From Eledone cirrhosa (taxonomy: Eukaryota): a DNA stretch of 64,000 nucleotides. The position numbers and the translations under genes are program-made. The stretch lies in contig OZ024740.1 of assembly GCA_964016885.1 (NCBI GenBank), positions 280,860,001 to 280,924,000 on the forward strand, read 5' to 3'. The notes beneath the pieces were generated by a model. That model was not told the origin of the DNA, did not search any database, and worked only from the letters and a program-made list of their open reading frames with translations. This document shows positions 1,590 to 62,883 of this stretch, one piece after another (positions within the stretch are counted from its first letter, which is position 1; the number at the start of each line of letters is the position of its first letter).

Positions 1590-2560
1590 AGCTGCAAACT
1601 CTGCCAAGAGTATTGCAATCGCTTGTGAGATTCTGATGTGTGACACTCGGATATGGCTTTTCAAGCCTGCTAGAGACTTGCACTCCTTCGTACGCCGACG
1701 ACAACTATGGCTCTCCCTGTCTTGAGGTCTTGTTATCAAGTTGCCTGTGAACCCTCAGAACACCGTGGAGATCATAGTTCACTGGTTCTCTTTGAACATG
1801 GCTGCGACTGTGGCTCCTGAAACCAGATGTGCTCAAGCAAAGTTTTCCACACTCAGGGCACTCCAATTCAATGGAGACACCGATCCTTTCGAGAGATACA
1901 CCAGGGCATTGCTTACGCACATCCCGTTTGATCTTTTCATGCTCTATTCGTCTATCTTCAAAATTATGGACCCCGTTATTCACCATTCCACGCCAAGTTT
2001 CTCTTTCAAGAGCTTCTATCTCCCAGTCAGCCATCATCAAACCTGTTTTTTTCAATGAGTCCTTTACACAATCCTTGAATCGGAGCCTTGGCTAGTGAGG
2101 TGGTCTCTTACCTTCACAAAGCTCGCCATACAAGAGTTGTTTTGGGATTCGATCATCCTCCATTCTGCAGAGGTGTCCGCTCCATCGCAAACGTCGTTTG
2201 TGGATGATACTCTCAATGCTCCGATATTCTCTTCTCTCAAGGACCTCAACATCACCCACATGCATCTGCCACTTGATACCGAGCATCTTTCTTAAACACT
2301 GGTGGTGAAACGGTTCCAGTCTATGGATATGCCGTTTATATACAACCCTTGTCTAACATGCATACAGAAAAGCTGACAGTACACAACAGCATACACTCTC
2401 ACCTCGGTCCTCATTGTGATTCCTCGCCTGCACCAAAGACGGTCGCTGAGCCTTCCAAATGACTCACATGCCTTACTAACACGTAAACCAACCTCTGCAT
2501 CCAGAGAGCAGGCCACACTCAGAGTACTCTCCAAATACACAAATGTATCAGCAGCCTTCA
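1589..2560 (-). mobile_element. RTE/BovB-like LINE 3' fragment (RT C-terminus + C2H2 zinc fingers), frameshifted
   Basis: YLESTLS..LDAEV..RVSKA..SFGRL; RRLRWSGHLCRMEDDRIPKQLLYGEL; CPECGKLC..GFRSHSRSH. Confidence 0.9.
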
Positions 2561-5297: not shown

Positions 5298-5916
5298 CGT
5301 ATGTAGTTGACAGCTGAGAGAAAAGAGTACGCTATGCCGAAGTAGAGTTTTAATGTTCATTTTATTAAGGCTAAAGCTAAATAGTGAGTCTTGTTACTCC
5401 GGTGTTTCGCCTGTTTATCACGGATGGAAAGGGCATTGGCAGGGTGGGGTGGTGGTGGTGGTGGGGGTGGGGGTAGGATAGGCTGTGTGAAAAAGATGAT
5501 AATAGGTAGTAGTGGACATAGCCATTAGGTTTTTAACTGGTCAGTGAGAGGCAGGTGATGGATGTGAAGGTGGGTGTATAGAGGGCTAGTGAAAAGGTTG
5601 GTGGGATAGAAAGGATGGTATATACATATTTATAGTACTACAAATGTACAAAATATACATACGTACACACTAAATACATATACGCAAGTACTAACATATA
5701 TGTAAATAAATATATATGTATTCCCACAAAGACATATAAATATAAAATACACACAAGGAAATACGTAAAAATACAAAGAAATATTAAAATATATATACAC
5801 ATACGTACACAAGAAGCATTTCCACGCATATAAACCTCAGTATACATATACATGTACATATGCATGTGTTTATATAAGTATATATATATGTATATGTATA
5901 TAATCACATAAACACA

Positions 5917-5968
<52 letters not shown>

Positions 5969-6031
5969 TATATATATCTCAGCCGTCGGGGTCCTGACTC
6001 TTTTCTTATATATAAATATATATATATATAT

Positions 6032-6640
6032 ATAAGTATGTACACGTACATACATATATGTATACCGACGTACAGTAGTATGTATATATATATATATATA
6101 TACATACATGCACACATATATATATGCACGTATGGATTCACCGAATATTTATTATAATGCTCGGTGTGTTTGTAAACAAACATCCCGTATTAAGCCGTTT
6201 CATTTTTTCCGTTTATCGTTTTCGGTGTACCCGGCCGATTAACCCACTCGATATGCAAATTGGGCTACTCAGCCGTTAATATGCATAAGGTAAGTATATA
6301 CGTTCAACAATCTGGCAGGAAGGTATACGTTGCTGACGATAGCTAACAAGCTTGAAACTAGTACAGCGTTCCTTTGTCAGTGTTGAACAAACGAGCAACG
6401 GTGGTTGCTAGACACTACGGCTTAATACGGGATGTTTGTTTACAAACACACCGAGCATTATAATAAATATTCGGTGAATCCATACGTGCATATATATATG
6501 TGTGCATGTATGTATATATATATATATACATACTACTGTACGTCGGTATACATATAAGTATGTACGTGTACATACTTATATTTAAGTAACAGCCGTACTA
6601 AGAGTGGGAAATGAAATATCGTTTCATTTTTTCCGTTTAT
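6032..6640 (+). mobile_element. Retrozyme-like family C: inverted partial copy (6032-6197) fused to one full 424-bp unit (6196-6640)
   Basis: Terminal direct repeat cgtttcattttttccgtttat at 6196-6216 and 6620-6640; central HHR; (TA)n on both sides. Confidence 0.85.
6328..6368 (+). ncRNA. Minimal type I hammerhead ribozyme (family C)
   Basis: cgttg CTGACGA t agct aaca agct t GAAA ctag TA cagcg. Confidence 0.9.
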
Positions 6641-6662
6641 ATATATATATTTATATATATAT

Positions 6663-6708
<46 letters not shown>

Positions 6709-6934
6709 ACATATATATATACATATACATACACATATACACATGAACGCCCATATACACATACAAATACGCATATATACATACACATAAAAAAACGTCC
6801 ACATATAGAAATATATACATACCTACAACTGACATGCATATATACATATGGATCCGAATATGAATATCCAAGTTCCATTGCATGCATAATGTATATAAGA
6901 TGGGCGGTTGAATGTATGTGGGTACTGTGGTAGG

Positions 6935-8080: not shown

Positions 8081-10626
8081 TTAATGTCGGTTGACAGTCT
8101 GGCAAACTACATCCAGGCAATGCAACCCCACATCACTAACACAAGAGAAGTAACACCACAAGAGCATGAGGATAGAGAAAAAACCCTCAATCCCCATATG
8201 ATGATGTGGACAAATATAATGCAGCCCAACAAAAGGACTGCCAACAACTTCCAGGCCTGGAACAATGACGTGCCAGTGTTGTATGGGCTTCGAAAAGACC
8301 ATAAAACGAGCAGTGACCCTGTCACAGGACCACCAACACGCCAGTCTGTGGAGCTAACATTGCTAGTAACTACAGACGGTCCTACTTCCTCTCCCTGATC
8401 ATACGCCCCATCATTGAAATGTCCCCAGATGTATGTGACAGCACGGAGGACCTCCTCAGCAGAATCGGCGAGAGTAACCGATCTAGGGACCTAACAAACT
8501 GCATAATAGGTAGTATGGATGTTGTGTCCCTGTATCCATCTATGGGCGTGGATTTTGCTGTGGAGAAATGCGGAGAAATGATCAGTGAGAGCAATGTTGA
8601 ATTCCGTGGGATTGATACCAGTGAGCTGGGACTCCTACTTAAACTTACCTATAGTAATAATTATCAAGACACATATGACCTTAGCAACCTGTGCCCTACA
8701 AGACCAGCAAGAGGCAGACCACCTACCATTACCTCAATGGCCAAGAAAACTCACACAGATAGATGGAACGGGTGGACCAGAGCCATACGGACCCCCGAAA
8801 ACCACGATGAACTAAAGAAAATGATTGCACATGCGGTGGGGCCAGCATAAAATTAACCCTTAAGGAACATATGTTCAAATTTAATGGAAAAACATATGCC
8901 CAAGAGGAGGGAGCAGCCATTGGTGTTAGCATTGCAGGCGACATAGCTAACCTATTCATGGTATGGTGGGACAGTAGACTTAAACTTAAACTTAAAGAAC
9001 AATTTGAAGACCCCTTAACCCTGATAATGTACTCCCGCTACGTTGATGATATAAACATCGTAGTTAAAATACCCCCACTAGAGAACAGTGAGGAATTAGA
9101 GAAAAACACAATGGAAAGCATCCAGCAAATAGCTAACTCCATCCACCAGAGTATTAGAGTTACTATAGACTACCCAAGCAAACAGCCCAACCATCGATTA
9201 CCTGTACTAGACACAGAGCTCTGGTTAGATACCATTAATAACAAAAAACAAATCCTCCATTCCCATTATGCCAAACCCATGACTTCCAAATATCTGATCC
9301 ATCGAAACTCAGCTGTTTCGGACCATACCAAAATCAACATACTGATTGCGGATTTGGTACGGGTGATGAGAAACGTGTCCCGCATGTGCAACCCCGAAGA
9401 ACTAGGGAGACACATACAACACTTCATCCACCGTATGCAGTTCTCTGGTTACAATCAGAGAGATAAAATCAGAGTGTATAGAGGAGCCAGAACCAAATGG
9501 GAAAAATTGGTAAATAATGACATAAATGGGACCTGTCCCTTGTATAGGAGCAAATTTTGGAATAGAATAGAAAGAACTAGGAATAAGGCTAATAGAATAA
9601 ACTCATGGTATGATAGCAATAATACCAGAGTGGAATGTTCATCGATACAACTCCTAGAGGTGAATTAGCTTACAAATTTAGAAGTGCCCTAGATAAACAT
9701 AAACTCAATATTAAGATAGTAGAAAGACCAGGTACCTCCATAAAAAAAACTTATTAGCAAGACATACCCTTTTCAAAGACCTCCCTGGATAGATAAAAAA
9801 TGTATAATCTGTAAATTAAGCCCCCATATTAACTGTAAAACTAAAAATGTAGTATATAGCATAAGATGTACTGAAGGACAATGTAGAGATAAAAATATAG
9901 TGTACATAGGTGAGACAGCTCGTAGTATAGGGGAACGGATAAATGAACACTGGCAAGACCTTCAAGATAGTAAAGAATCATCTGTACTCTACCAACATGC
10001 TAAAATAGAACATAAGGGTAAATTAGAGAACATAGAAATAAAAATTGAATCTACACACAGAAAAGACGCAATGTTTAGACAAATCACAGAGGCAATAAAC
10101 ATAAATGAATTACAACCAAAATTAAATAGAAAATATGAGTGGAACATCAACATCACAACTTACAATTAAGGACAAAATGAAAACACACTCGCACATAGAA
10201 CAAACAACCAACCAGTAACATGTAAATAAACAAATAAATAAACGAATATAAACACACACAGACACCCGGATGTAACACATGCGCAAACTAAGCACACAAC
10301 ACACAAAAACAAGATTTCGTAGGTCAGAACAAAGGAGAGGCACAAAAAAACAAAAAAAAAAACAAAGAAAAGAATCCCCAGTCACTGAAGAGGTCACAGA
10401 ATGTGTGACGAAAGAACTTTGACAATATATAAACAACCATCTGGTTGTGGAACCAACTAACCGGAAATTTATAAATTCCTAAATTTATAAATTTATTATA
10501 ATAAATTGAAGTGAAAGCAATGGTGCGTGTGTTTCTTATTGGCAACATGGCCCTCCCAAAGTATAACAATATCGGTTTCAACACACGTTTTCAGATAAAG
10601 AATCTTTCTAAACAAATTCAGAAACG

Positions 10627-10630
<4 letters not shown>
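8081..10630 (+). mobile_element. Penelope-like element (Neptune/Nematis-like), 5'-truncated and frameshifted; RT + GIY-YIG + pLTR with HHR
   Basis: LYGLRKDHK; SMDVVSLYPS; QEEGAAIG..IANLFM; YSRYVDD; YIGETARSIGERINEH..EAINI..PKLN; ends in (TA)n. Confidence 0.95.
10381..10423 (+). ncRNA. Minimal type I hammerhead ribozyme in pLTR (family A)
   Basis: gtca CTGAAGA g gtcaca gaatg tgtgac GAAA gaac TT tgac. Confidence 0.85.
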
Positions 10631-10708
<78 letters not shown>

Positions 10709-10861: not shown

Positions 10862-13800
10862 TCCAGGGGTGTAACTTGGAGTTACTGCAGGTTCACCCGG
10901 GGAGCACTTGATGTTTAGGTTCACTTCTGTGATGAGGTGTAGAGCTATACAGAGTGTAATATATATAAAAAAGAATAACAAGGACGATTGGTTACTCCTT
11001 CTTTACATTTATTGGTAGGTGACGCGCGTTTCGCCACTGATCAGCTCAAGGTTCGATAAAACAGGAAAATTATACAATTTGGTGTACAAAACTTACAACA
11101 AATGCATTACAAACGAAATCGCTAAAATATACAAAACATCAACACGGGAAAACCTAGCACACATAAATAAACAGGCGAAAACAATAATGACCGAACTGAG
11201 TATTGACGACAGGACTCATCCATACATCCCTAGGACACCGAGACTATATATTAAAGACCATAAACCGGACTTCCAGTCAAAACTACCGGTCAGGCTCATA
11301 GCTCCGTCTAAATCGGACCTAGGTAGACTTAGCAAATCAATCATTGACCGAATTATACCTGAACTTAGAAATAAAACTAAACTCAGCCTATGGTCTTGTA
11401 CAAATGAAGTACTCGACTGGTTTTGTGGCATTGAAACTAAGTCGAATGTTCGATTAGTCCAATTGGACATTATGAACTACTACGCATCTATATCCCCAAT
11501 CATCCTTAACAAGGCACTGATCTCAGCCATGAACAGATCAAGCCTCACTAGAAAGGAAGTGGACATCATACTAACAGCTAGGAAAACTTTACTAGAATTT
11601 GACGGTAGATTGTGGGAGCGAGAGAATAGACCAGATAGCTTCGACAATACCATGGGATCGACTGACTCCGCACAGGTTACAGATATAGTAGGCATATACC
11701 TCCTAAATATATTAACAGACGAGATCCCCTCCTTGGGCGGTGGCTTATACCGTGACGATGCCCTACTAATGGCCCGTGGACTCAATAATAGCCAAATTGA
11801 TAGAATACACAAACGACTTAGGTACATCTTTAAGACCCAAGGATTAGCGGTAGAAATTGAACCCAATAATAGGAAGTAAACGTTTTAGATGTCACCCTAG
11901 AATTAGACTCAGGCCTCTACCGTCCATACCACGAACATAATGAAAATCTTAAATACGTCAACAGACACTCCAACCGCCCTAGGGCATAATTAACTCAATA
12001 GTTAAAAGCGTATCCAATAGAGTGTCCACCCTATCGGCTAATAGAAATATCTTCAACCAGCACGCGGAATACAACTCTGCACTTGTAAACGCTGGTTACA
12101 TTGAGAATATTTCTTGCATCGACCCAAATAGAACCGTAACGCCGCTAAACATAACCGGACCCTTAGAAAACAACATAGAAGAAGTCACCACACCTAGGAC
12201 AAATAATAACCTAAGATCCTCCGTAGCCGGCAGGGCAGGCAGCGTCACACACAACTGTCGAGGAGATAAAGCCATACTCTCCAACCCCAATAAGGACTCC
12301 GACTATCGCACACGTTTGCGTAGCAATAGAGACAAAAGACATAATGCCAATAGATTACTTGGAACCCCTATGACACAAACGCCTGACCAAAATGCACACG
12401 AACTACCACCCAACCACAAAAACCTCACTAAACACCGCAGACCCCGAAGTAGACCTGTCACATGTACAACTATACATGATATTCTATACACGTCGCCACC
12501 AATATACCGGGAACCTTCTTCAGGGCTCTCGAACAATCTTTTCCACGTACACATAAATACCACAAACTCTTCAATGACACACTGTAAAATTCTTTCTCCA
12601 CAGCACCAAATATAGGCCACACAACAGCACACACTAATAGGACAAAAATACAAAAACACATGGTTGCCCCACAACAAACCACCACCACAACTCAGAACGA
12701 AACCACACACACAACACAACAGAACAACCCACATACCAGACTCACACCGCATGCCACCAACCGCCAACCTGCCAACTGCAACTGCAAAAAACGGGCCGAA
12801 TGCCCACTAAACGGGGAGTGCCTCGTTAAAAACATTGTTTACCGGTGTGATGTCACAGCCGGCAATAAAGAGTACTCATATATAGGTGCGACATCCACTA
12901 CGTTTAAGGAGCGCTGGTATAACCATAGAAGCTCCTTTAAACATAGGCTGAAACGATCCCAAACCAGACTGGCCGATTTGATCTGGGACCTCAAGGACAG
13001 GAACATTGAACCCCAGATCTCGTGGTCTGTCAGTGAAAAGACGCGTGGCACAACTCCCCAGTGACAGAAACCACTGCAGGTTATGCCTGGCTGAGGCGGC
13101 AGAAATAATTAAATTAAAATCTGCCATAAACTATAGGTCGGACATAATTGTCAATTGCAGACACACAAGGCTGAACACATTTTCCGCACAAACATTCGGG
13201 GGAGGGCCGCACACTAAACATGACCCAGCATAATAATAACCACCTCTGCCCCGTCTCACCATCGCCCATCTCAGTGAATTTATTTTATTGTATTGCATGT
13301 AACCATTTGTAAGCCCGTATTTTGTATATCATGCCGCATACATCACCCCCCACCAAAAATCACATCGCCATACACCCCTCATCCTTGCAACATTGTGTTC
13401 TATCTGTCCTCTCTGTCAGGTTTTACCTTGCAAACCATAGTAACATCTGATCCTGTAAATATAATGACGATCATATCACACCATCGCCACCACCACCACA
13501 GCACACATCGTCATATGTCTACCATCCATACCCACAACCTTATTCCCCCATCTTCTCTCTGTCTACCCTAACCTACAATCCCGCGCTAAATTCGACCCTG
13601 TAAATATACTGTCGCACACACCGCCACCACTAGATACATCTACATACTTCAACAATCATTAACATCATCAACACATATGATCCCTCACTCCCAGATCGAC
13701 TGTGTTATATCCGCCCTCCGTCTGCCTTACACTGTAACCCACCGTAACATCTGATCATGTAATCATTTTGTTGAACATATCACCCCAGCACCACCACCAC

Positions 13801-14960: not shown

Positions 14961-15374
14961 ACAGGTCCCACCGCATGGTTGAAAAAGATATCTCTTTGGT
15001 AATTTACGACCACAGTTCAGTGGTAGGTACATGAGACCAGATTCACTAATTGACACATAAATAACACCTCGCTCCACAAATTGCAAACACAATGGTTGAG
15101 AAGAGACTTTAGGAACTTATATGTCAGCCGAGCACACGACTAGGAGTACGTGTTTTTTTTTTTGCCTGCGCTGTGGCATATCACAAAATCAGATTTTCAT
15201 CTGAAGATATCGTTCTGATGACAACAACAAATGCATAAATTACATCTTAGATTGCATAAGAGAACCGTTGAAATGATTATTTTGAATAAATGATTTATGT
15301 AACATCACCATGTTTCTTAATGTTATTCTTATATATTTTTCGATATAACCCATACGTACATATGTATATGTATA

Positions 15375-15459
<85 letters not shown>

Positions 15460-15618
15460 ATACTTTGAGAGGGTCATGTTGCCAATAAGAAACACACGCA
15501 CCAGTTGCTTTCACTTCAATTTATTATATATTTATGAATTTATAAATTTACAAATCTACAAATTTATAAATTTCTGGTTGGTTGGTTGGTTCCACAACCA
15601 GATAGTTGTTTATATATA

Positions 15619-15661
15619 GTCATAGTCCTTTCGTCACACACTCTGTGACCTCTTCAGTGAC
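15619..15661 (-). ncRNA. Minimal type I hammerhead ribozyme (family A)
   Basis: RC gtca CTGAAGA g gtcaca gagtg tgtgac GAAA ggac TA tgac. Confidence 0.88.
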
Positions 15662-15866
15662 TGGGGATTCCTTTCTTTGTTTCTGTGCCTTTCCTTTCTT
15701 CTGTCCTACGCCATTTTGTTTCTGTGTGTGTGTTGTGTGCTCAGTTTGCGCATGCGCCACATCCGGGTGCCTGTGTGTGTTTGTGTTCATTTATCTATTT
15801 GTTTATTTATTTACATGTTATTGGTTGGTTGTTTGTTCTATGTGTGTGTGTGTTTTCATTTTGTCC

Positions 15867-17300
15867 TTAATTGTAAGTTGTGATGTTGCTGTTCCACTCA
15901 TATTTTCTATTTAATTTTGGTTGTAATTCTTTTATGTTTATTGCCTCTGTAATTTGTCTAAACATTGCATCTTTTCTGTGTGTAGATTCTATTTTTATTT
16001 CTATGTTCTCTAATTTACCCTTGTGTTCTATCTTAGCATGTTGGTAGAGTACAGATGATTCTTTATTATCTTGAAGGTCTCGCCAGTGTTCATTTATCCG
16101 TTCCCCTATACTACGAGCTGTCTCACCTATGTACACTATATTTTTGTTTCTACATTGTCCTTCAGTACATCTTATGCTATACACTACATTTCTAGTTTTA
16201 CAGTTATTATGGGGGCTTATTTTACAGGTTATACATTTCTTATCTATACATGAGGGTCTTTGGAACGGGTATGTCTTGCTAATAAGTGTTTTTACGGAGG
16301 TACCTGGTCTTTCTACTATCTTAATATTGAGTTTATGTTTATTTAGGGCCCTTCTAAATTTGTAGGCTAGTTCGCCTCTAGGGGTTGTATCGATGAACAT
16401 TACACTCTGGTATTTATTGCTATCATACCATGAGTTTATTCTATTGGCCTTGTTCCTAGTTCTTTCTATTCTATTCCAAAATTTGCTCCTATACAAGGGG
16501 CAGGTCCCATTTATGTCCTTATTTACCATTTTTTCCCATTTGGTTCTGGCTCCTCTATACACTCTGATTCTATCTCTCTGATTGTAGCCAGAGAACTGCA
16601 TACGGTGGATGAAGTGTTGTATGTGTCTCTCTAGTTCTTCGGGGTTGCACATGTGGGACACATTTCTCATCACCCGTACCAAATCCTCAATCAGTATGTT
16701 GATTTTGGTATGGTCCGAAATGGCCGAGTTTCGGTGGATCAGATGTTTGGAAGTCATGGGTTTGGCATAATGGGAATGGAGGATTTGTTTTTGGTTGTTA
16801 ATGGTATCTAACCAGAGCTCTGTGTCTAGTACAGGTAATCGATGGTTGGCGTGTCTACTTGGGTAGTCTATAGTAACTCTAATGCTCTGGTGGATGGAGT
16901 TTGCTATTTTCTGGATGCTTTCCATTGTGTTTTTCTCTAGTTCCTGACTGTTCTCTAGTGGGGGTGTCTTAACTACGATGTTTATATCATCTACGTAGCG
17001 GGAGTACATTATCATGGTTAAGCTGTCTTCTAATTGTTCTTTAAGTTTAAGTTTAAGTCTACTGTCCCACCATACCATGAATAAGTTAGCTATGTCGCCT
17101 GCAATGCTAACACCAATGGCTGCTCCTTCCTCTTGGGCATATGTTTTTCCATTAAATTTGAACATATGTTCCTTACGGGTTAATTTTATGCTGGCCCCTA
17201 TCGTATGTGCAATCATTTTCTTCAGTTCATCGTGGTTTTCGGGTGTCCGTATGGCTCTGGTCCACCCGTTCCATCTATCTGTTTGGGTTTTCTTGTCCAT
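15867..17300 (-). pseudogene. Uninterrupted 477-aa PLE ORF segment: RT C-terminal half + Cys linker + GIY-YIG endonuclease
   Basis: GAAIG, RYVDD, LPVLD, CIDKKCITC..C, NVVYSIRC..C..YIGET..R..EH, H..R..EA..LN. Confidence 0.92.
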
Positions 17301-17394
17301 TGAGGTAATGGTATGTGGTCTGCCTCTTGCTGGTCTTGTAGGGCACAGGTTGCTAAGGTCATATGTGTCTAGGTAACTATTATATATATATATA

Positions 17395-17705
17395 TTTATT
17401 AAAATAACAGATTAAAGTTTAAGCAAAGAATCGCTGCTTTCACCCTTAACGGGATCTTCTTTGGTTCATAATGTGTGATGATAGTCAAGTTTGCAATTTT
17501 CAACTGTGGTCCACAGTTGAAAATTGCAAACTTGACTGTCACCACATATTATGAACCTGAAGATTGCGAAAGCATGAAGTAATTGTTCAATTAACACTTA
17601 ACATTTAATATTCTACCATACTATTTCATTCTAATACCATTATAAAATTTAAAGGATTGTAAATAAAACGAGTAAATCAGACAAAGTTGGAATTCCTTTT
17701 ATTAA
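17395..17705. repeat. pLTR-like relic containing a ~95-bp palindrome (17463-17557); related sequence at 10705-10775 and 63672-63740
   Basis: ggttcataat..ttgcaattttcaactgtgg t ccacagttgaaaattgcaa..attatgaacc; shared gatcccgttaagg.tgaaagcagcgattctttgcttaaac. Confidence 0.7.
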
Positions 17706-19376: not shown

Positions 19377-19717
19377 TATAGACATATTTATTTATTTTTA
19401 TATATATATACACACACACCCACATATATATATATATATATATTTGTTTTTTCTCATATATGTTTTCCTCTCATAATTTTTAACCCTCTCTCATTTTTTC
19501 AACTCTCATTTTGTATTTACGTATTTTTTATTTTTTGGTTTTTGATTCGTACGATAGAAGATATTATCTAATTGTTTCCTTAATTATTACGTTCTATACT
19601 TTAAATTTATATTGCCTTTTTCTTCGTTACGATACTATCGTTCAATATTGATCCCTTTTTATAATTTCTACTATAATTTACGTATTTTCCTATTTATTAT
19701 TATATATACATATATAT

Positions 19718-20252
<535 letters not shown>

Positions 20253-21502: not shown

Positions 21503-21714
21503 AAACTATATATATGTGTTTGTGTCTATATTGTATCTGTATTATTTTTGACCGCCGGTCAGTCAATGGCAACATTGTAAGTTAGATTACCGATATAAAA
21601 GACACAGAAGCGAGAAGCGAAAACCAACCAAACAGTGAGTGTGTTCTGTTATTAATTCTGGCAATATTACACAAATATGACCCTCCCCAAGTATAACAAT
21701 ATATATATATATAT

Positions 21715-22239
21715 TGTTATGCTTTGGGAGGGTCATGTTGCCAGTAAGAAACACACGCACCAGTTGCTTCACTTCAATTTATTATAATAAATTTATAATA
21801 AATTTATAAATTTATAAATTTCTGATTGGTTGGTTCCACAACCAGATAGTTGTTTATATATTGTCATAGTTCTTTCGTCACACACTCTGTGACCTCTTCA
21901 GTCCTACGCCATTTTGTGTCCTACGCCATTTTGTTTCTGAGAAACAAAATGGCGTAGGACAGAACAAAGGAGAGGCACAGAAACAAAGAAAGGAATCCCC
22001 AGTCACTGAAGAGGTCACAGAGTGTGTTACGAAAGAACTATGACAATATATAAACAACTATCTGGTTGCGGAACCAACCAACCAACCAGAAATTTATTAT
22101 AAATTTATTATAATAAATTGAAGTGAAAGCAACTGGTGCGTGTGTTTCTTATTGGCAACATGACCCTCCCAAAGTATAACAATATCGGTTTCAACACACG
22201 ATTTCAGATAAAGAATCCTGCTAAACAAATTCAGAAACG

Positions 22240-22245
<6 letters not shown>
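21715..22245. mobile_element. Head-to-head solo pLTR pair of family A, each with an HHR (21863-21902 minus; 22002-22044 plus)
   Basis: Palindromic junction ccattttgtttc tga gaaacaaaatgg; both arms match 10330-10630. Confidence 0.9.
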
Positions 22246-22301
<56 letters not shown>

Positions 22302-26412: not shown

Positions 26413-26460
<48 letters not shown>

Positions 26461-26464
<4 letters not shown>

Positions 26465-26800
26465 GATAAGCAGAACAAGCAAAATTCAACCAATTTTTTA
26501 AAATAAATTAGCCCTAGGAAAGGAAAATGCTTCTCTGATGAACTTTGATTTTCCATTGGAAATCCATTGGATTTCTGGTGTTTTACAAAGCGAAACCGAT
26601 CGGTAAGGGCCAAAAGAATAGGTAAATATTTAAATCATATTTTTTAATTTATTTTAAAAAATTGGATGAATTTTGCTTGTTCTGCTTATCTTAATATTAT
26701 AGTTCTGGTATGTCAAATTAATACCATAGAACAACGTTAAATCATAGACAACCTATGTATTTCTAGGGGTACTTAGTACCCATGGGCATATTAACTTCTT
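26461..26800 (+). mobile_element. Inverted fragment + pLTR carrying an extended-stem-II HHR (26529-26610)
   Basis: 26461-26510 is the RC of 26645-26694; CTGATGA a ctttg...gaaatcca t tggatttc...caaag c GAAA ccgatcgg TA aggg. Confidence 0.78.
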
Positions 26801-26801
26801 C

Positions 26802-26873
<72 letters not shown>

Positions 26874-26879
<6 letters not shown>

Positions 26880-27366
26880 GGAAAAAATGAAATTTCATTT
26901 CTCACTCTTAGTACGGCTGATACTTTAATATAAGTATGTATACGTACATACATATATGTATACAGACGTACAGTAGTATGTATATACATACATACATGCA
27001 CACATATATATATGTACGTATGGGTTTACCGAACATTTATTATAATGTTCGGTTTGTTTGTAAAGAAACAGCCCGAATTATTAGCCGTACAGTGTTCGGC
27101 AACCATCGTTGCCATTTTGTTCAACACTGACAAAGGAACGATGAACTAGTTTCTAGCTTATTAGCTGTCATCAGCACCGTATACCTTCCTGTCAGTCAAT
27201 TGAACGTTTGAAAGCTAATAATTCGAGCTGTTTGTTTACAAAGAAACCGAACATTATAATAAATGTTCGGTAAACCCATACGTAGATATATATATATGTG
27301 TGCATGTATGTATGTATATACATACGACTGTACGTCTGTATACATATATGTATGTACGTATACATA

Positions 27367-27370
<4 letters not shown>
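26874..27370. mobile_element. Retrozyme-like family C, diverged subfamily, as an inverted pair
   Basis: 26874-27192 and its partial RC 27216-27370; HHR at 27139-27179. Confidence 0.85.
27139..27179 (-). ncRNA. Minimal hammerhead ribozyme (family C variant) with a compensatory stem I change
   Basis: RC cggtg CTGATGA c agct aata agct a GAAA ctag TT catcg. Confidence 0.88.
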
Positions 27371-27411
<41 letters not shown>

Positions 27412-27470
27412 ACGCGCAAAAAACGAATAGGAACACATTTATTATCCAACCATATGCAATAGTGAAAAGA

Positions 27471-27557
27471 ACCTTCTGACGAGAGTTTATCTTTTCAATG
27501 GAAGCCCGCAAGGACTTTCCATTTATTTTTGAGACTCGAAACCGATTCGGTAAAGGT
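27471..27557 (+). ncRNA. Type I hammerhead ribozyme with extended stem II
   Basis: acctt CTGACGA gagttt...agactc GAAA ccgattcgg TA aaggt. Confidence 0.92.
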
Positions 27558-27956
27558 AACCGTAGTAAGTACAGTGAATTTCTTGAAATTTATTTTGAAA
27601 CTTTTTCTTATTTGCTAAACCTTGATTATATATGTTCTGGCTCGTTAATTTATTAACCTGCCATTGAACGACATTGGCATATTGTTGGATAATACATGTG
27701 TTCCTATTCGTTTTTTTGCGTGTAGGGATATATACCTTATTATTATTAATCTCTCCCTGGTCGAGATGAAATCTGGTCATTTTGACTACTGCTATTATAG
27801 TGGTAGTAGACTGACCTCCCTGCCTCTGCTTCTATCTTTACACACGACACTGGACAGAATTGCTTCCACATCATTCATTCTCATCTCGGGAACAATTTTG
27901 AATAGCGCCAGTTCGTAATTTGAACTCGGGAATTTTATATTCTCCGAGTGAAAAGA

Positions 27957-28043
27957 ACCTTCTGACGAGAGTTTATCCTTTCAATGGAAGCCCGCAAGGA
28001 CTTTCCATTTATTTTTGAGACTCGAAACCGATTCGGTAAAGGT
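27957..28043 (+). ncRNA. Type I hammerhead ribozyme with extended stem II (second copy)
   Basis: Same as 27471-27557 except one substitution in the stem II internal loop. Confidence 0.92.
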
Positions 28044-28536
28044 AACCATAGTAAGTACAGTGAATCTTTTGAAATTTATTTTGAAACCTTTTCTTATTTG
28101 CTAAACCATGATTATATATATATAGAGAGAGAGACTACTGAACAAAGCCTCACGCAGAAAGATATGCCAGGTCAGATTAGTTACATAATCCTACTTGGGT
28201 ACACTCCTAACTTGCAGATGCAATATATTTGTTGCATCAGAAACCGTAGCGGTCCAGGTAAAATATTTCTTTCTTGCTTTTGCTTTGTAGTGACGTTGTC
28301 GTTGTTATCTATTTTATTCCTATTGTAGTACGCATACTAATGGTATTTATAGCGTTTCCCCTCATTAACGTGTGTGCCTACAGTGATGAAATGAATATAT
28401 GGGTGCAACTCTAATATTTCGGATGGTGTTACCGCGATGCAATTATTAATTCGATGCAGTTTTATAATATATATGTGTACACACACACACACACACACAC
28501 ACTCACTCACACACAGAGACACACGCACGCACGCAA

Positions 28537-31816: not shown

Positions 31817-32088
31817 TTCGTTTCTGAATTTGAGAAACAAAATGGCGTAGGACAGAAGAAAGGAAAAGCACAGAAACAAAGAAAGGAATCCCCAGTCACT
31901 GAAGAGGTCACAGAGTGTGTGACGAAAGGACTATGACTATATATAAACAACTATCTGGTTGTGGAACCAACCAACCAACCAGAAATTTATAAGTTTGTAA
32001 ATTTATAAATTTATAAATATATAATAAATTGAAGTGAAAGCAACTGGTGCGTGTGTTTCTTATTGGCAACATGACCCTCCCAAAGTAT

Positions 32089-32095
<7 letters not shown>
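31817..32095 (+). mobile_element. Solo family A pLTR with HHR (31895-31937) and a 15-bp inverted terminus
   Basis: gtca CTGAAGA g gtcaca..tgtgac GAAA ggac TA tgac; tttcgtttctgaatttg is the RC of the pLTR end. Confidence 0.88.
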
Positions 32096-32172
<77 letters not shown>

Positions 32173-32337
32173 TTCATACATGCTTATGCGTGTGTCGAGT
32201 ATTTAGTACATGATGATATTTTTCAAGATGGTTTATAACATCAATATTTCAACATCACACCACAGTATTTGTATGTGTGGAACAATATATTTAGTTGTTT
32301 GTCATTACACCTTTGAAAATGAAGAAACATAATAGAT

Positions 32338-32958
32338 ATAAGTATGTACACGTACATACACATCTGTATACAGACGTACAGTAGTATGTATATATATATA
32401 CATACATGCACACATATATATATGTACGTATGGATTCACCGAACATTTATGCTCGGTGTGTTTGTAAACAAACATCCCGTATTAAGCCGTAGTGTCCAGC
32501 AACCATCGTTGCTCGTTTGTTCAACACTGACAAAGAAACGCTGTACTATTTTCAAGCTTATTAGCAACGTATACCTTCCTGCCAGATTGTTGAACGTATA
32601 TACATATTAACTTATGCATATTAACGGCTGAGTAGCCCAATTTGCATATCGAGTGGGTTAATCGGCCGGGTGCACCGAAACGATAAACGGAAAAAATGAA
32701 ACGAAATTTCATTTCCCACTCTTAGTACAGCTGTTACTTAAATATAAGTATGTACACGTACATACATATATGTATACAGACGTACAGTAGTATGTATATA
32801 TATATATACATACATGCACACATATATATATATGTTCGTATGGATTCACCGAACATTTATTATAATGCTCGGTGTGTTTGCAAACAAACATCCCGTATTA
32901 AGCCGTAGTGTCCAGCAACCATCGTTGCTCGTTTGTTCAACACTGACAAAGGAACGCT
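32338..32958 (-). mobile_element. Retrozyme-like family C, 1.5 head-to-tail units (period 406 bp); HHR core deleted
   Basis: ataagtatg at 32338 and 32744; ...ttagcaacg lacks the tcgtcag core. Confidence 0.88.
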
Positions 32959-33653
32959 CCTTTACGTAATTCTACTGAGGCATACACCCAGCATCTCAAA
33001 TATAATCAATAAGACTTTGCTAATGATGTGTCATCCTTTGAAAACATTACTACCAAATAAAATGAATAATAAAGTTATAATCCAAATTGAATAATTCTTT
33101 GCAACTTCTAGAAGAGTGAAATATTTCCTTTCTTAGTAATAGTGAATGACATTAAATGAATAGTCATGGTTCCTTTTGTCATTCACACCATATTAAATTT
33201 AATTATAAAAGAAATAAAATATTTCTGCGCTACAATTAATAACTCAATCCTATTTGGTTAACTATTAATTTCATTTATTATAATGATAATTTTGGAACTA
33301 TCTTTAAAAAAAACCCGCATTAGATTTCACAGAAGCAACGGCATCTTGTTAGAGAAATGGTATCGATTGATGACAAGTTGTGTGTAAAACAGCTTAAGTT
33401 TCGAGCAAAAATATTTTCATCTTTTGAAATATCTTTCAAAGAAAATCCATTCAAAACCAATATACTTTTCTATATTCAATAATTACATCTGATATGGTAC
33501 GTGGAAATATAAATGGATTTTTTTTATCCGACCTACTCATATACTCCAATGTACCCTGTTAACGCTATAAACTTCTTTTTTATTTGTCATTGGAAAACTA
33601 CTTTAATAGGCTGATGTTGAATCAGTCAGCTATACCCAACTCCAAAATATAAT

Positions 33654-45353: not shown

Positions 45354-46285
45354 GCGGAGGCCTCCTACCTCTTCGGTCTCATAATTAGCCTTGGCAAGAC
45401 TGATGTCCTGTTCCAGCCTGCACCTGCCTCCGTCGCCCACCTCCTTCCATCTCCATTGGAGGCACCCAGCTAAAGACGGTGGACGACTTCAAGTACCTCG
45501 GCAGTATCATCAGCAGCGATGGAAGCCTCGACGAGGAGATAAACGCCAGGATCTGCAAGGCTAGTCAAGCCCTTGGCCGCCTGAGGACACGCGTCCTGAA
45601 CCAGCACAATATCAGGCAGTCCACCAAGCTCAAGGTGTACAGGGTTGTTATTCTCAGCAGACTCTTCTACGCATGTGAGACATGGACCCTGTACAGAAGG
45701 CACCTGAAGCAGCTGCAAGTGTTCTACATGCGCAGCCTGCGGTCAATCATGAACATCAAATGGCAGGACAAGGTCTCCAACCTCGAAGTTCTTGACATGG
45801 CTGAGACAACCAGTGTCGAAGCTATGATACTGAAGAGCCGACTTCGATGGGTGGGACATGTCATCCGGATGGACGATCACAGGCTTCCGAAGAAACTGAT
45901 GTATGGGGAACTCTGTTCGGGGAAACGAAAGCAGGGCAGCCCTCTCAAGAGGTTCAAGGACTGTGTGAAGCCCAGCATCAACAACACTGGAATCGCCCCA
46001 AAACAACTCGAGTCCCATGCTCAGGACAGGACTGAGTGGCGAGCCCTTACCAAACACGCCAAAGACTCTTTTGAAGAGAAGAGACGGACAGAGGTCACTA
46101 AGGCCCGTAAAAGGAGGAGAAAGTCATCAGCAGCTGCCCAAGTGACTCCGGTCTCTTCCCCTGCCCCCACTGTCCCCGTACCTGCAAGTCAAGGATCGGC
46201 CTCCACAGCCACCTTCATGCCACGGCAGACAGGAACAACAATAAAGAAGTTGTCATCATCGTTTACGATGGGCAACCAAGAAGAG
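45354..46285 (+). mobile_element. RTE/BovB-like LINE, 5'-truncated, with a 26-bp TSD
   Basis: FKYLGS..EINARICKASQALGRL..RLRWVGHVIRMDDHRLPKKLMYGEL; TSD acaattatttgcttgaaaatatgaac (45328-45353/46286-46311). Confidence 0.95.
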
Positions 46286-47479
46286 ACAATTATTTGCTTG
46301 AAAATATGAACAGTTGTTGGTTATTTGTATTTTGTTGAATTCATTGAACATTCTTATCCTGCTAATTGTGAATTCAATAAGAATTTGTAATGTTTGTGAA
46401 AGTGGTTTTTGATTGAAGAGCACCCTTGGAGGTGCTCTTCACTTGCTAATATTTGCAACTATATCTCCATTGAACTATGCCTGAAAAATATAATTTTAAA
46501 ACAATCTGCCACAACATGCTTTGAATTCACGTATGTAACGCCGGTCGAACGTGGAAACGATGCGTGTGAAAGACATATCACAACGCATATGAACACCATA
46601 TATATAGTTACAGACTCAGCATACATTGAGTATCATAGAACAAACGCAAATACAGTTTGGCTGAAAATATAGACCCCCAAACTCATATAAACACACCCGA
46701 AATTACAACAAAACGTAATACAAACAACCTTCTTCACCTTATTAAATTCTCCAACTTCAACAACGATATTATATCATTTAGAAACCGTAATTACACGTGA
46801 CGTTTTGAATTTAGTTGGACAGTGTTTTATTAGTTACTCAGAGGTGGGGGAAAGTAACGGCTACCGGTTCATTTCGAACATCTGTTGATTAACATCTGCT
46901 TTAAAAAAACAAACGAACAAACAAAAAAACGTTTTCATAGACTACAGTTCGGGCGAAAAATGATTAACAGTAGCCTGTAGTGCAAAATATTGGAGGTGAA
47001 ACATAGTAAAGGTGGCAATGTTAGATTGAATCTAGAAAAGCAAACTAATATCTTACAAAATCACAATGATTTCAGTATTCGAATTCAAAACGGAAAAGAT
47101 AAATAGTTTAAAGTACAGCTGAAATTTAATCTGTTCAAATGAGTTGATTGTAATTTATATTGAAAAATGAGATTAATTTGCGGGACAGTGAAAATATCGT
47201 TAAATCGATAACTACAGATGTTGTCCACAAGCCGTTTGTTATGATTAGGATATACTTTATTTGGTAAAACACTAAAACCTATTTGGGATAATACAATATT
47301 GGTGGTGAGTGAAGGTGGAAAAAGAGAGTGAGCTAGACTGGAGTGGAAGGGACACGAAAACAGCCAGCACTGAAAGGAGGCTACTGCAGTAGTGGTAGAA
47401 AAGGAAGAGGAAAAAGACAGCACATCTATGGAGTAGATGCTGGAATGTCCCAGTAACAGACACATTGTCAGTTAATTGA

Positions 47480-53398: not shown

Positions 53399-53474
53399 TT
53401 CACGACACATGTTTCAATAAGAGATAGATCAATTGTGTAGCCATGATCGATTATCACTGATCTCGTCAGGTGAA
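53399..53474 (-). ncRNA. Hammerhead ribozyme in pLTR, stem II base damaged
   Basis: RC ttcac CTGACGA gatca...tgatc tatctcttatt GAAA catgtg TC gtgaa. Confidence 0.65.
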
Positions 53475-53868: not shown

Positions 53869-56771
53869 TTCACTGAAAGTTAGTTTACAAAACAACAAAT
53901 GTTATATTGGTCAAATCTCAATTTGACGATGTAAATTGGAAAAATTGGGTCAACCGCAACCCTATACACACGCAAGTAAGTTCAGTTCAATGTTCTGCTA
54001 TACGTGTATAGATTGAATTGTAACATCCGTATCTCCAAATAGTGTATGTTATGGTATATACACATCCGTATCATCCAAAAAAGTGTATGTTTTGGCACAT
54101 ACACATCCATGTGAAGAGCAAGTAGTCAGCTCATATCGAACTCAGTATGTGCCGTTGTCCCATTGAGAATCTGAATCCCCAAATCTGTGTGTGCAAGCAA
54201 CCGCTATGTAGGCCACCAAGGGGCTCTGTATATGGTTGAGTATTTGGGTTATGGTGTCAGTATGTGCGATTTCAGTCATATGGGCCCTTGGGCTTTTAAG
54301 ATAGGTGTTTGAGTGGTGGAGGTGTGTTATCCAACACAAAAATAAAAATAAAATAAAATAAAATAAAATAACAAAGAATAGCAAAACCCAGAGGATGTGT
54401 GCAGGCGCATTAATGGTGTGTAAGTATTATTGTCCAATCTGTAACCGTGAGCACTCCATGGTTAGATGATCACGGATCAAAACCCAGTGTAGTGTTCAAT
54501 TGATAGGAACGTGACCAGTCATAACTGTGGGAACTCAGTGTCTAAAGAAACCGGGTACTGTGTGTAGAGTTATGTATAGAGAGCGTAATCGGTCTTAATT
54601 GAGTGCGTAATACGTCTATCTATATCTTAACCGAGAGAACTCAATGGTTAGGGTATCCTAAAGTAATGGTGAATGCGCGTAATCTATCTTACCTGAGTGT
54701 GTAATCATTCTAACTATTTACTAACTAGGTATTCTAAAGTGCACTCAGCTGTGAGAACTCTGTGGAAACAGGCCGAGTACCGTTTGTAAGTGCGCAAACG
54801 ATCTTAGCTGTCTAACTACCTGAGTGTGTGATTGTCTGTTTTTTGCTAATTGAGAGAACTCTATGGCTAAATTAGATAGGGAGGAGTTAGTGGTAGGTTA
54901 CTTTCCAAAAATCCTGCGGAAGGTTTTCGAGGTTCTATGTTGGCAGTTGCTGAAAAAATCCGCTCTCCTATTGATTAATAGGGGGCCGCCTCTAATAATA
55001 TTAAAGGTTTCAGCTATACATAAATTACAGACGCCCGTGCTGCCGTTATATGGCATTATTCTCCTATCTAGGAAAACCTTAATTGAGTTCAAAGGTGACT
55101 TGTGGACCAGGAAAGATTGGTGGGACAATTTCGATATCACCATGGGATCCACGGACTCGGCCCAGGTGACGGATCTGGTTGGTCTTTACTTCCTCGACTG
55201 TCTCGGAGTGGAAATGCCCCACTTGGGAGGTGGAGCTTACCGTGACGACGTTTTGTTTACTGTGTCGTTCCATAATAATAGTATAGTAGAGAGGGTGAGG
55301 AAAAAACTTAGTAAATTCTTCAACAATATACACCTAAGTATAATGTTTGAAGAAAACCTGAAGATAGTTAATTTTCTAGATGTTACACTTAACCTCAATT
55401 CAGGACTCTTCCAACCCTACCAGAAACCCAACGAGAATTTAAATTATGTCAACGCAAAATCGAACGACCCTAGAATAGTCACTAACGGTGTTACCAAAAG
55501 CGTCTCTAGTAGAATTTCAGGACTATCTTCCAATGAAGATACATTCGATAGGATCTCAAATTACTACAATAGCGCCCTGGAACGCGCGGGGCATAGCGAG
55601 GGAATCTCATTCAAACGTCCATTAAATAGTAGTACCAACATTGCCTGCGATAGCTTAGGCCAAAATAGTGACACTTTAGTTAACAGCAGGCGGGTTGCGA
55701 GGGAGGATCAATATAGACTTCATGTTGATTTGCCCCCTAGTCCCAATGTTGATGGTACCAATGGAAACAATCACCCAGGTATAAACACGGGGTCTGAGCA
55801 CCGTAATGCCAGCGGAAACTCTAATCGTAACCTCAATTGTAGAACTGATAAAAAATCGTTGAACGTAAAATGGACCGGGGGTCGGGTAGAGGGAATAGGG
55901 CATAGTGGATATAACCCCGGCTATCGTGGGTAATCCCAATAGCTGCATGGGGGTACACCGCCCCGGAGACGACTTGGAACGATTCAAAACACAATCGGGA
56001 CACCCCAGGAGACCATCGACCCAGGGGCAGTTTTCAGTAATAATAGACCAGTAGCAACTAAGGAGACAGGTAACTCTAGTATAGATAGTAAGAACAAGAG
56101 GCACCGGACCAGAAAAATCCTGTGGTATAAACCCCCGTACTCCACCGGCCTAAATCACTAGTATAGCTAAGCTTTTATTTAGGGCCTTAGACAAATGCTT
56201 CCCTAGATCACACAGATACTATAAAATATTCAATAGAAATACCATCAAGCTGTCCTACTCCACAACCAGTAACATAGCTCAGAATATAGCTAAGATGAAT
56301 TATAGTAGACTTAGGACAGCCTAAGGGGGGATGAGACATGGCAGAACTAATGGAAGCTCTATGGATGAACGGACTCATACACGTAAGGCGAGTCGGGTTA
56401 CCCCAACCCCTTGGAACTTACCCATAGAGTAGTCAAAGAACTGAGACCCGACCCCAGAGGTACCGTGGTTTCTATGGAACTACCCTGGTCAATAACAGAA
56501 AATGTAATTGCAGGAACACCGCCACTTGCCCCATGGCTGGGAAATGCCTCACCAAAAACATAGTCTACGACTGTAAGGTCTCCACTTTAGATAGAGCCTT
56601 CAGGTATGTTGGGGCAACTGCCACTGAATTTAAGGATAGATGGTATAATCACTGCCATACCTTTAATAGATTGGATAAAAAAAAAATAGCACGGCGCTTT
56701 CTGAATTAGTCTGGAAGCTTAAACAACAATATATATATATATATATTTGTGTGCGTATATATATATATATT

Positions 56772-62712: not shown

Positions 62713-62883
62713 TAGTGACTCTTGCATCGCAAATAATGTTTCCGTACATCTTCTCATTCCCCACATCACCCCCCACCTCAATATTTAAAGCAATCAAACG
62801 TAACGATACTTCATTTATCAGTAAGAACCTCAACTGTGAAGTTGACTATGACCACTACCAACGACAAACACGACTACCACCAT

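What the first reader, a model, noticed from the sequence alone, without database searches (positions are those of the whole stretch)
27402..28119. Double-hammerhead cassette predicted to excise a 486-nt RNA
Two almost identical, intact HHRs (5-bp stem I, 6-bp stem II base plus nested aatggaag/ctttccatt hairpin, stem III ccgattcgg, GUA site) lie in direct orientation. Predicted cleavage after 27552 and 28038 releases a 486-nt non-coding monomer that could be circularised. A 56-bp inverted internal piece at the 5' junction and (TA)n flanks are PLE-type insertion hallmarks. It is unrelated in sequence to family C, so it is a second retrozyme-like family.
Basis: partly seen in the sequence, partly recalled or inferred. 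Interest (0 to 1): 0.85.

Follow-up and report, generated by a model that had tools for sequence, protein, structure and literature searches.

The report
Penelope-carried hammerhead retrozyme, 486-base family
This is one of about a thousand or more scattered copies of a small non-coding jumping element that carries a predicted self-cutting RNA and bears the insertion marks of Penelope-type retrotransposons, which likely copy it from a small RNA circle; it is a new family of a known kind.

Summary
Observation confirmed: two intact type I hammerheads 486 nt apart, a 56-nt inverted piece, (TA)n flanks. It is one middle-aged copy (its two repeats differ at 6 of 173 bases) of a dispersed non-coding family: 929 exact end junctions in the genome. 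None of 219 sampled arms joins an ORF, so it is not a fragment of a coding element. Copies end at two fixed internal sites about 110 nt apart (42 of 50 two-armed insertions use one each), the Penelope 'tail' signature. Helices I and II show compensatory changes between subfamilies. Every long arm reads through a cut site and no array over 3.1 units was found, which favours a circular template; direct tests of this were weak or blank. No parent element, no RNA data; cleavage untested. The scan has reported other such families (310, 422, 467-469 nt) in this genome, but not this sequence. New member of the non-LTR retrozymes.

The parts
27370..27407 (.). (TA)n target tract, left flank (its last bases overlap the end of the inverted arm)
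   Evidence: 197 of 219 arm 3' ends abut (TA)n
27401..27457 (-). Inverted second arm, unit positions 217-274, ending at the second fixed end (E2)
   Evidence: E1+E2 pairing in 42 of 50 two-armed insertions
27461..27946 (+). One full 486-nt non-coding unit (unit position 1 = 27461)
27463..27557 (+). Hammerhead 1 (type I; core 27476-27482, GAAA 27538-27541, predicted cut after 27552)
27463..27497 (+). Likely pseudoknot: 27463-27470 (5' of helix I) pairs with 27490-27497 (3' of the first strand of helix II); 8 of 8 pairs possible in this copy
   Evidence: inferred as a tertiary contact
27553..28038 (+). Predicted 486-nt monomer between the two cut sites (37% G+C; circular fold -114.5 kcal/mol, z about -3.0)
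   Evidence: prediction only
27565..27725 (+). Intron-like stretch: donor-like GTRAGT at 27565-27570, pyrimidine tract and AG at 27724-27725, spanning E1
   Evidence: allele counts; Penelope and Chlamys-3 layout; splicing not shown, no spliced copy
27627..27633 (+). Internal copy of end site E1 (short TA run, 74-81 nt after the cut)
27728..27748 (+). Internal copy of end site E2 (unit 270-288)
27925..27948 (+). Conserved hairpin just upstream of hammerhead 2; missing before hammerhead 1 because of the 5' truncation
27947..28119 (+). Terminal repeat (pseudo-LTR equivalent) ending at E1 in a short (TA)n then (GA)n tract
27949..28043 (+). Hammerhead 2 (core 27962-27968, predicted cut after 28038); a private T>C at 27978 breaks a central pair of the likely pseudoknot
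26460..26805 (+). Separate insertion of a sister family (485-487-nt unit): inverted arm about 26460-26510 ending at its E1, forward arm with hammerhead core at 26535, predicted cut after 26605, ending at its E2

Best explanation
The locus is one 5'-truncated, two-armed insertion of a dispersed non-coding 486-nt hammerhead repeat with Penelope-type ends, likely mobilised in trans by a Penelope-like reverse transcriptase/endonuclease that likely copies a ribozyme-released RNA circle. Steps. Shown by sequence: about a thousand or more dispersed copies, no ORF, insertion into (TA)n, two fixed 3' ends (E1, E2) about 110 nt apart, variable 5' truncation, head-to-head arms, read-through of the cut site, hammerhead fold kept by compensatory change. 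Inferred from Penelope biochemistry (PMC11167929): the enzyme nicks both strands of AT-rich DNA and starts cDNA at two internal sites of the RNA, which gives the E1 arm and the E2 arm; the unfinished cDNAs join with 0-8 nt microhomology. Inferred, least sure: a transcript with two hammerheads is cut to a 486-nt monomer, ligated to a circle by a host ligase as shown in vitro for mussel and axolotl retrozymes (PMC7229834), and the enzyme runs round it, which rebuilds the more-than-unit copy in each generation. Odds: non-autonomous Penelope-type retrozyme family 0.92; ribozyme able to cleave in at least some copies 0.8; circle as the main template 0.55.
For: Copy number and dispersal: 650 and 929 exact pattern matches, controls 0; 2436 first-look candidates. 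Ends: of 219 arms in 169 unique insertions, 147 end at E1, 56 at E2, 16 elsewhere; 42 of 50 two-armed insertions are E1+E2; all 50 are head-to-head, 27 with 1-12 nt overlap. ORF-bearing PLEs in the same genome show the same two-end layout behind their own hammerheads (about 75/140 and 155/215 nt after the cut). No ORF link. Ribozyme under selection in a non-coding lineage: 12 core positions have no subfamily-level variant against 102 of 474 positions overall (Fisher p 0.08, so suggestive alone); helix I U-A 170 / C-G 38 copies; 26 cells with change on both sides against 8.2+-2.0 in shuffles, 93% paired against 24-57% for slid controls; the fold survives near-complete sequence turnover in sister families. 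For the circle: any arm from E1 longer than about 80 nt crosses a cut site, so a linear cut monomer cannot be the template; about 68 upstream passes gave 6 stops near the site; junctions are precise, 3 indel events in about 262 passes, no more than background; a linear template with internal starts loses sequence in each generation, yet the longest arm among the 40 best of 2763 candidates is 3.14 units in a lineage old enough to have 80% and 57% identical branches; no recurrent polarised difference between last and next-to-last repeat in 65 pairs.
Against: No RNA evidence was obtained and cleavage was not tested. In the one biochemically studied PLE, hammerhead cleavage was not needed for insertion in vitro, uncut RNA was the main substrate and no reads ended at the cut site (PMC11167929). 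Variants shared by repeats of one insertion looked enriched against a chance model (72 vs at most 14.5) but hardly against the fair control of the nearest other insertion (8.8% vs 6.5%, p 0.07). No A>G editing bias (7 of 72 shared vs 75 of 1035 private, p 0.48). Arms are short (median 408 nt), so few show several turns. Nested-fold prediction gives hammerhead 1 a helix I probability of 0.01 and both ribozymes about 0 in the whole transcript; the program cannot model the pseudoknot, and its rival fold uses the same strands. No parent PLE was found. The longest-array search scores only 40 candidates, so a long master array may have been missed.
Confidence: 0.58

Rival explanations
1. Same family and same Penelope-type enzyme, but the template is linear uncut RNA; the tandem is rebuilt by strand transfer between the repeated ends or by jumping to a second RNA, and the hammerhead acts at another step (5' end trimming, protein-assisted switch, RNA turnover).
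For: PMC11167929: cleavage dispensable in vitro, protein-assisted, no reads at the cut. Slight excess of arms that stop at the cut site, 6 against 2.1 expected, nominal p 0.02, as if some templates had a cut 5' end and an uncut 3' ribozyme. Weak sharing of private variants. Mostly short arms.
Against: Other bins show equal excesses of stops (8 vs 2.7; 10 vs 3.7), so the stop signal is weak. Precise junctions speak against end-to-end jumps at the cut, though not against homology-guided transfer. Circles are the main RNA form in coral, mussel and axolotl retrozymes (PMC7229834).
Confidence: 0.32
2. Ordinary partial tandem: the stretch is the pseudo-LTR and UTRs of an ORF-bearing Penelope-like element, or a recent internal deletion of one.
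For: Layout equals that of ORF-bearing PLEs of this genome: hammerhead, E1, tail, E2. The intron-like stretch spans the repeat boundary as in Penelope. Xenopus retrozymes are related to PLE pLTRs.
Against: 0 of 219 arms joined to a PLE ORF; the 12 with a PLE fragment within 1.5 kb upstream are separated by a (TA)n tract (11) or by the opposite arm (1). A profile of the family found no ORF-linked homologue in 70 PLE loci plus the window; post-cut sequence is not alike to four ORF-bearing PLE ends (z at most 1.8). The non-coding unit has kept about 486 nt across branches 80% and 57% identical. An ancient origin from a PLE pLTR stays likely.
Confidence: 0.05
3. The repeat is a DNA-level satellite or local duplication; the second hammerhead arose by tandem duplication after insertion of a solo copy.
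For: Proposed for vertebrate retrozyme arrays (10.64898/2026.07.22.740005). One locus (L111) shows a local duplication that includes flank.
Against: Tandems are partial, in perfect 486-nt register, with fixed 3' ends and random 5' ends at dispersed sites on many contigs; flanks are not duplicated; no long arrays.
Confidence: 0.05

Closest known systems
Metazoan non-LTR retrozymes (Cervera and de la Pena 2020, PMC7229834: passages and Discussion read; Li, Clavereau and Pollet 2026, 10.64898/2026.07.22.740005: parts 1-3 of 5 read, supplements closed)
   Same: [quoted passage not shown]
   Different: Unit 486 nt (150-450 in the 2020 paper, 51-972 in the 2026 preprint); arrays short (at most 3.1 units seen); helix II extended by an internal loop and hairpin; likely pseudoknot contact; explicit Penelope end signature; RNA and circles not shown here.
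Endonuclease-bearing Penelope-like elements and their pLTR/tail structure (Frangieh et al. 2024, PMC11167929: parts 1-2 of 4 read; Craig et al. 2021, PMC8557442: passages; Arkhipova et al. 2013, PMC3846280: passages; Cervera and de la Pena 2014, PMC4209133: parts 1-2 of 4)
   Same: 5' truncation, partial tandem, adjacent inverted arm, two alternative 3' ends, (TA)n targets, hammerhead with short palindromic helix III upstream of the ends, intron-like stretch across the repeat boundary.
   Different: No ORF; tail about 110 nt against 30-40 nt in the papers and about 60-65 nt in two ORF-bearing families here; no sequence link to any ORF-bearing family examined.
Non-autonomous Chlamys elements such as MRC1 (PMC8557442, passage)
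   Same: Non-coding, pLTR-forming, multicopy head-to-tail insertions driven by a PLE.
   Different: Those lack canonical hammerheads and generally share 3' sequence with an autonomous partner; here a hammerhead is present and no partner was found.
Pseudoknot-stabilised hammerheads (Perreault et al. 2011, PMC3088659: passages read)
   Same: Base-paired contact between the far ends of stems I and II in place of loop-loop contacts; about 40% of their set, all three types.
   Different: Here predicted in an animal mobile repeat, between the strand 5' of helix I and an internal loop of a long helix II; untested. One search (retrozyme + pseudoknot + type I + hammerhead) gave 9 papers, seen as a listing only, so I cannot say it is unreported.

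Membership tests
Type I hammerhead ribozyme | Core CUGANGA / GAAA / NUH with helices I, II, III | tested here: met
   (core 96-99% invariant in about 220-260 copies); 134 of 221 whole copies pass a strict core+helix test
Type I hammerhead ribozyme | Compensatory base changes in the helices | tested here: met
   few independent events within A/B, more across sister families
Type I hammerhead ribozyme | Match to an Rfam hammerhead model | tested here: not met
   likely due to the long helix II insert
Type I hammerhead ribozyme | Self-cleavage at the NUH site | not testable with these tools
   needs in vitro transcription
Non-LTR retrozyme | Tandem non-coding units of a few hundred bases, each with a type I hammerhead (two or more in a row) | tested here: met
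Non-LTR retrozyme | Dispersed multicopy family, low G+C, no ORF | tested here: met
Non-LTR retrozyme | Expressed as monomeric linear and circular RNA | not testable with these tools
   no RNA holder listed; only contigs of unknown kind could be laid
Penelope-like element (insertion signature) | 5'-truncated partial tandems with an adjacent inverted arm | tested here: met
Penelope-like element (insertion signature) | Two alternative 3' ends (tail) | tested here: met
   tail about 110 nt, longer than the 30-40 nt in print
Penelope-like element (insertion signature) | AT-rich / (TA)n target | tested here: met
   197 of 219 arm ends; 30 of the 180 loci were selected on a TA-containing pattern
Penelope-like element (insertion signature) | Retained intron across the pLTR boundary | tested here: inconclusive
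   donor- and acceptor-like motifs kept across subfamilies; splicing not shown
Autonomous Penelope-like element | RT plus GIY-YIG ORF between the repeats | tested here: not met
Non-autonomous PLE with known partner | Terminal sequence shared with an ORF-bearing family | tested here: inconclusive
   none in 70 PLE loci plus the window, a small sample of 10,595 GIY-YIG candidates

The most novel reading that the evidence does not exclude
An old clade of ORF-less Penelope parasites (486, 485-487 and 459-nt units, 54-80% identical) lives as small RNA circles: a pseudoknot-boosted hammerhead makes the monomer, a kept splice-donor signal 12-16 nt after the cut governs processing or export, and one Penelope enzyme dimer starts cDNA at two internal sites of the circle at once, writing both arms. 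That would be a natural, minimal substrate to test whether Penelope enzymes use circular templates, the open question behind pLTR formation.
Probability: 0.3. Interest if true: 0.7.

Novelty: new member of a known kind. Interest (0 to 1): 0.4.

Why it matters
How Penelope-like elements rebuild their more-than-unit copies, and whether their hammerheads matter for it, is unsettled: a circle was proposed (PMC4209133, PMC7229834) while the only in vitro system found cleavage dispensable (PMC11167929). A non-coding lineage that has kept the ribozyme fold through 45% sequence divergence says that the fold is needed for spreading, and a 486-nt unit with mapped start sites is a small test substrate. 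It also adds genomic support, outside vertebrates, that animal retrozymes are moved by Penelope enzymes. The locus itself is an ordinary, ageing copy, and younger families with longer arrays in this genome make the same case more strongly.

Tried and rejected
Parent search: GIY-YIG family search (150 of 10,595 candidates scored, 30 loci plus 20 fetched), two protein searches (20 loci fetched), blastn, nhmmer and hammerhead scans: no ORF-bearing relative. An 18-nt match next to two PLE loci belongs to another repeat. An 11-nt motif shared in reverse with one Neptune-like pLTR is within chance (my estimate about 0.35 expected). A long-helix hammerhead upstream of the ORF in L071 is a separate two-armed insertion behind a (TA)n tract. 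No RNA holder listed; laying three contig sets of unknown kind showed subfamily variation and no GT..AG joint, which is no evidence on splicing or expression. RNA-editing scars: not found. Shared private variants: first test looked strong, fair control weak; the nearest-neighbour distance is biased and was dropped. Strong stop at the cut site: weak. Three 15-16-nt deletions across the cut site among 10 large deletions sit between short repeated words and were read as DNA slippage (not tested further). Spliced genomic copies: none among held segments; no genome-wide search. Rfam: only low-complexity hits. Literature searches for 'octopus + hammerhead ribozyme', 'retrozyme + cephalopod' and 'cephalopod + Penelope + retrotransposon + genome expansion' (listings only) showed no description of such a family; the host group was my guess from composition and from other notes, not a result.

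Full report
1. Observation. A motif scan of both strands finds hammerhead cores at 27476 and 27962 with predicted cuts after 27552 and 28038. They lie in a 173-nt direct repeat, 486 nt apart, with 6 differences. The 5' piece 27401-27457 is an inverted copy of 27677-27734 (93%). The unit has no long ORF and no Rfam hammerhead match. Unit position 1 below is window 27461; the cut follows position 92.

2. A dispersed family. The genome (G000, 3.0 Gb; host not identified by my calls) has 650 exact copies of a 24-nt hammerhead piece and 929 exact junctions of the 3' end with (TA)n; reversed controls gave 0. These are lower bounds. I mapped 180 loci (L001-L030, L081-L230) to the unit: 193 insertions, 169 unique after removing duplicates and those cut by a locus edge, 219 arms. 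L001-L030 and L222-L230 came from best-hit lists and are biased to long copies; they were left out of the truncation statistics. Subfamily B is 80% identical and also a 486-nt non-coding unit (the output was cut and I saw L131-L139 and L153-L160). Repeats inside one insertion differ by 4.1% (tandem) and 4.9% (opposite arms), pooled; this locus, at 3.5%, is typical, so the family is past its peak.

3. Penelope signature. 147 arms end at E1 (unit 165-176), 56 at E2 (270-290), 16 elsewhere. 42 of 50 two-armed insertions have one of each; all 50 are head-to-head with 3' ends outward, most with a few bases of overlap. 197 of 219 ends abut (TA)n. 5' ends are spread over the unit. The window copy is the standard case: an E1 arm of 1.36 units and a 56-nt E2 arm. 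Two ORF-bearing PLE families in the genome (RT and GIY-YIG by Pfam or by the family search) have the same layout behind their own hammerheads, with ends about 75/140 and 155/215 nt after the cut. Frangieh et al. (PMC11167929) showed that a PLE protein nicks and extends both strands of AT-rich DNA and starts cDNA at two internal RNA sites whose spacing is the genomic tail. I read E1 and E2 as those two sites (inference).

4. Not a fragment of a coding element. With 12 PLE proteins as queries, none of 219 arms is joined to an ORF; 217 had at least 500 bases of upstream sequence in hand. A family profile found no ORF-linked homologue in 70 PLE loci and the window. The mobilising family is therefore unknown; the sample is small against 10,595 GIY-YIG candidates.

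5. The ribozyme is conserved as a fold. Core positions are 96-99% invariant, none carries a subfamily variant against 102 of 474 positions overall (p 0.08; some loci were selected on part of the core). Helix I has U-A in 170 and C-G in 38 copies. On 29 aligned copies, picked for diversity after dropping those with large deletions, 93% of cells pair and 26 change on both sides, against 8.2 in shuffles and at most 5 in slid controls; these are few independent events. Sister families turn over almost all helix letters and keep the pairing. Helix III is short and near-palindromic, so a dimer fold is open (duplex -16.3 against hairpin -3.0 kcal/mol), as in PLE and amphibian hammerheads.

6. Extra features. 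(a) The 7-8 bases just 5' of helix I can pair with the bases just 3' of the first strand of helix II. One pair changes on both sides between A and B (A-U 143, G-C 30 of 178), the outer pairs are broken in 40 and 29 copies, and four central pairs hold in 93-99%. The pairing is kept with other letters in families D, E and two further ones (best run of 6 or more pairs in 136 of 174 distinct copies against 24 of 174 after shuffling). Its place fits the stem I-stem II pseudoknot of Perreault et al.. It could also be a conserved inactive fold: nested folding of hammerhead 1 prefers it to the active form. Hammerhead 2 of this locus has a private change in it (duplex -2.4 against -6.6). (b) A donor-like GTAAGT 12 nt after the cut varies almost only to GTGAGT or GTAGGT (113, 106, 11 copies in the three top classes), and a pyrimidine tract with YAG lies 161 nt on, beyond E1. 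Penelope and Chlamys-3 have an intron across the same boundary and keep it when they move. The sister families have GT motifs 14-16 nt after the cut. No held copy lacks the stretch. (c) A sister insertion lies at 26460-26805: 485-487-nt unit, 57% identical, 3172 first-look candidates, ends about 105 nt apart. A 459-nt family is 55-64% identical to both.

7. Mechanism. Since E1 lies about 75 nt after the cut, every arm longer than that crosses a cut site. A linear cut monomer is therefore not the template; it must be a circle or uncut RNA. Cutting rarely ends cDNA: 6 stops near the site against 2.1 expected, in about 68 passes, with similar excesses in other bins. Junctions are exact. With internal starts, a linear template yields a product shorter than its source, so the tandem must be rebuilt each time; no long master array was seen (longest 3.14 units). 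A circle does this simply and explains why an ORF-less lineage keeps its ribozyme. Strand transfer between repeated ends of an uncut RNA does it too, and fits the in vitro finding that cleavage is dispensable. My sequence tests did not separate the two: shared variants p 0.07 against the fair control, no editing scars and no polarised differences. I put the circle at 0.55.

8. This locus. Both cores are intact, but only 13 of 171 pattern-sampled arms hold two whole ribozymes, and the first unit here is cut off 10 bases before helix I, without the upstream hairpin. Release of 27553-28038 needs a start upstream of 27471; the start site is unknown. In the 2026 preprint 1 of 9 predicted dimers cleaved.

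9. Verdict. A real, well-supported new family of animal non-LTR retrozymes with a clear Penelope footprint. The kind is known, and earlier notes of this scan describe other families in this genome with the same reading (unchecked AI notes); this sequence had no look-alike there. The likely pseudoknot, the intron-like signal and the clade of sister families are the additions. Interest 0.4.

Noticed in passing
window 26460-26805: Two-armed insertion of a sister hammerhead family (485-487-nt unit, copies 96-98% alike); many copies, the window's included, have A-C instead of G-C at the first pair of helix II.
   Followed up: partly
window 8317-10690 (+), 15360-17411 (-), 31835-32170 (+), 21700-22300: Copies and ends of a very abundant PLE family (47,656 first-look candidates, open frames over 1200 aa elsewhere) with a compact hammerhead about 210 nt after the stop codon.
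   Followed up: partly
window 11019-13200, 54854-55933, 57940-58584, 61744-62845: Fragments of a second PLE-like clade; no hammerhead found next to its ORFs by my scan in 17 fetched loci.
   Followed up: partly
L061:950 and 5930 (-); also L062, L066, L068, L072, L244: ORF-bearing PLE with the rare U3-A8 hammerhead core, GUA site, helix I strands like those of the 486-nt family, and a YAG-type acceptor-like motif in its tail.
   Followed up: partly
L071:174-1506; L080:26-130; window 53404-53470 (-); L105 near 741 (-): Further hammerheads with long helix II inserts; L071 is a 98.5% identical two-armed insertion with a longer unit; L071 and L080 show the same pseudoknot-type pairing.
   Followed up: partly
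window 26870-27376: Element with long inverted ends (about 160 nt, 96%) between the two hammerhead insertions, repeated at 1305-1540, 5873-6740, 19690-20250 and 32330-32960; MITE-like.
   Followed up: no
   Followed up: no
L074:5130-5330; L066:100-310; flanks of L025, L082, L112, L114, L115: Another (TA)n-inserting repeat, often beside this family, that shares an 18-nt word with the stretch after the cut site, apparently on its opposite strand.
   Followed up: partly
L111:3549-5566: A 1.5-kb local duplication containing a whole insertion with its flank.
   Followed up: no
L119, L199, L143: 3 of 10 deletions of 15 nt or more remove the cut site in one repeat of an insertion while the other repeat is whole.
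   Followed up: partly
window 45404-46309 (-), 1705-2091 (-): Fragments of a LINE-type reverse transcriptase (RTE-like by recall, not tested).
   Followed up: no
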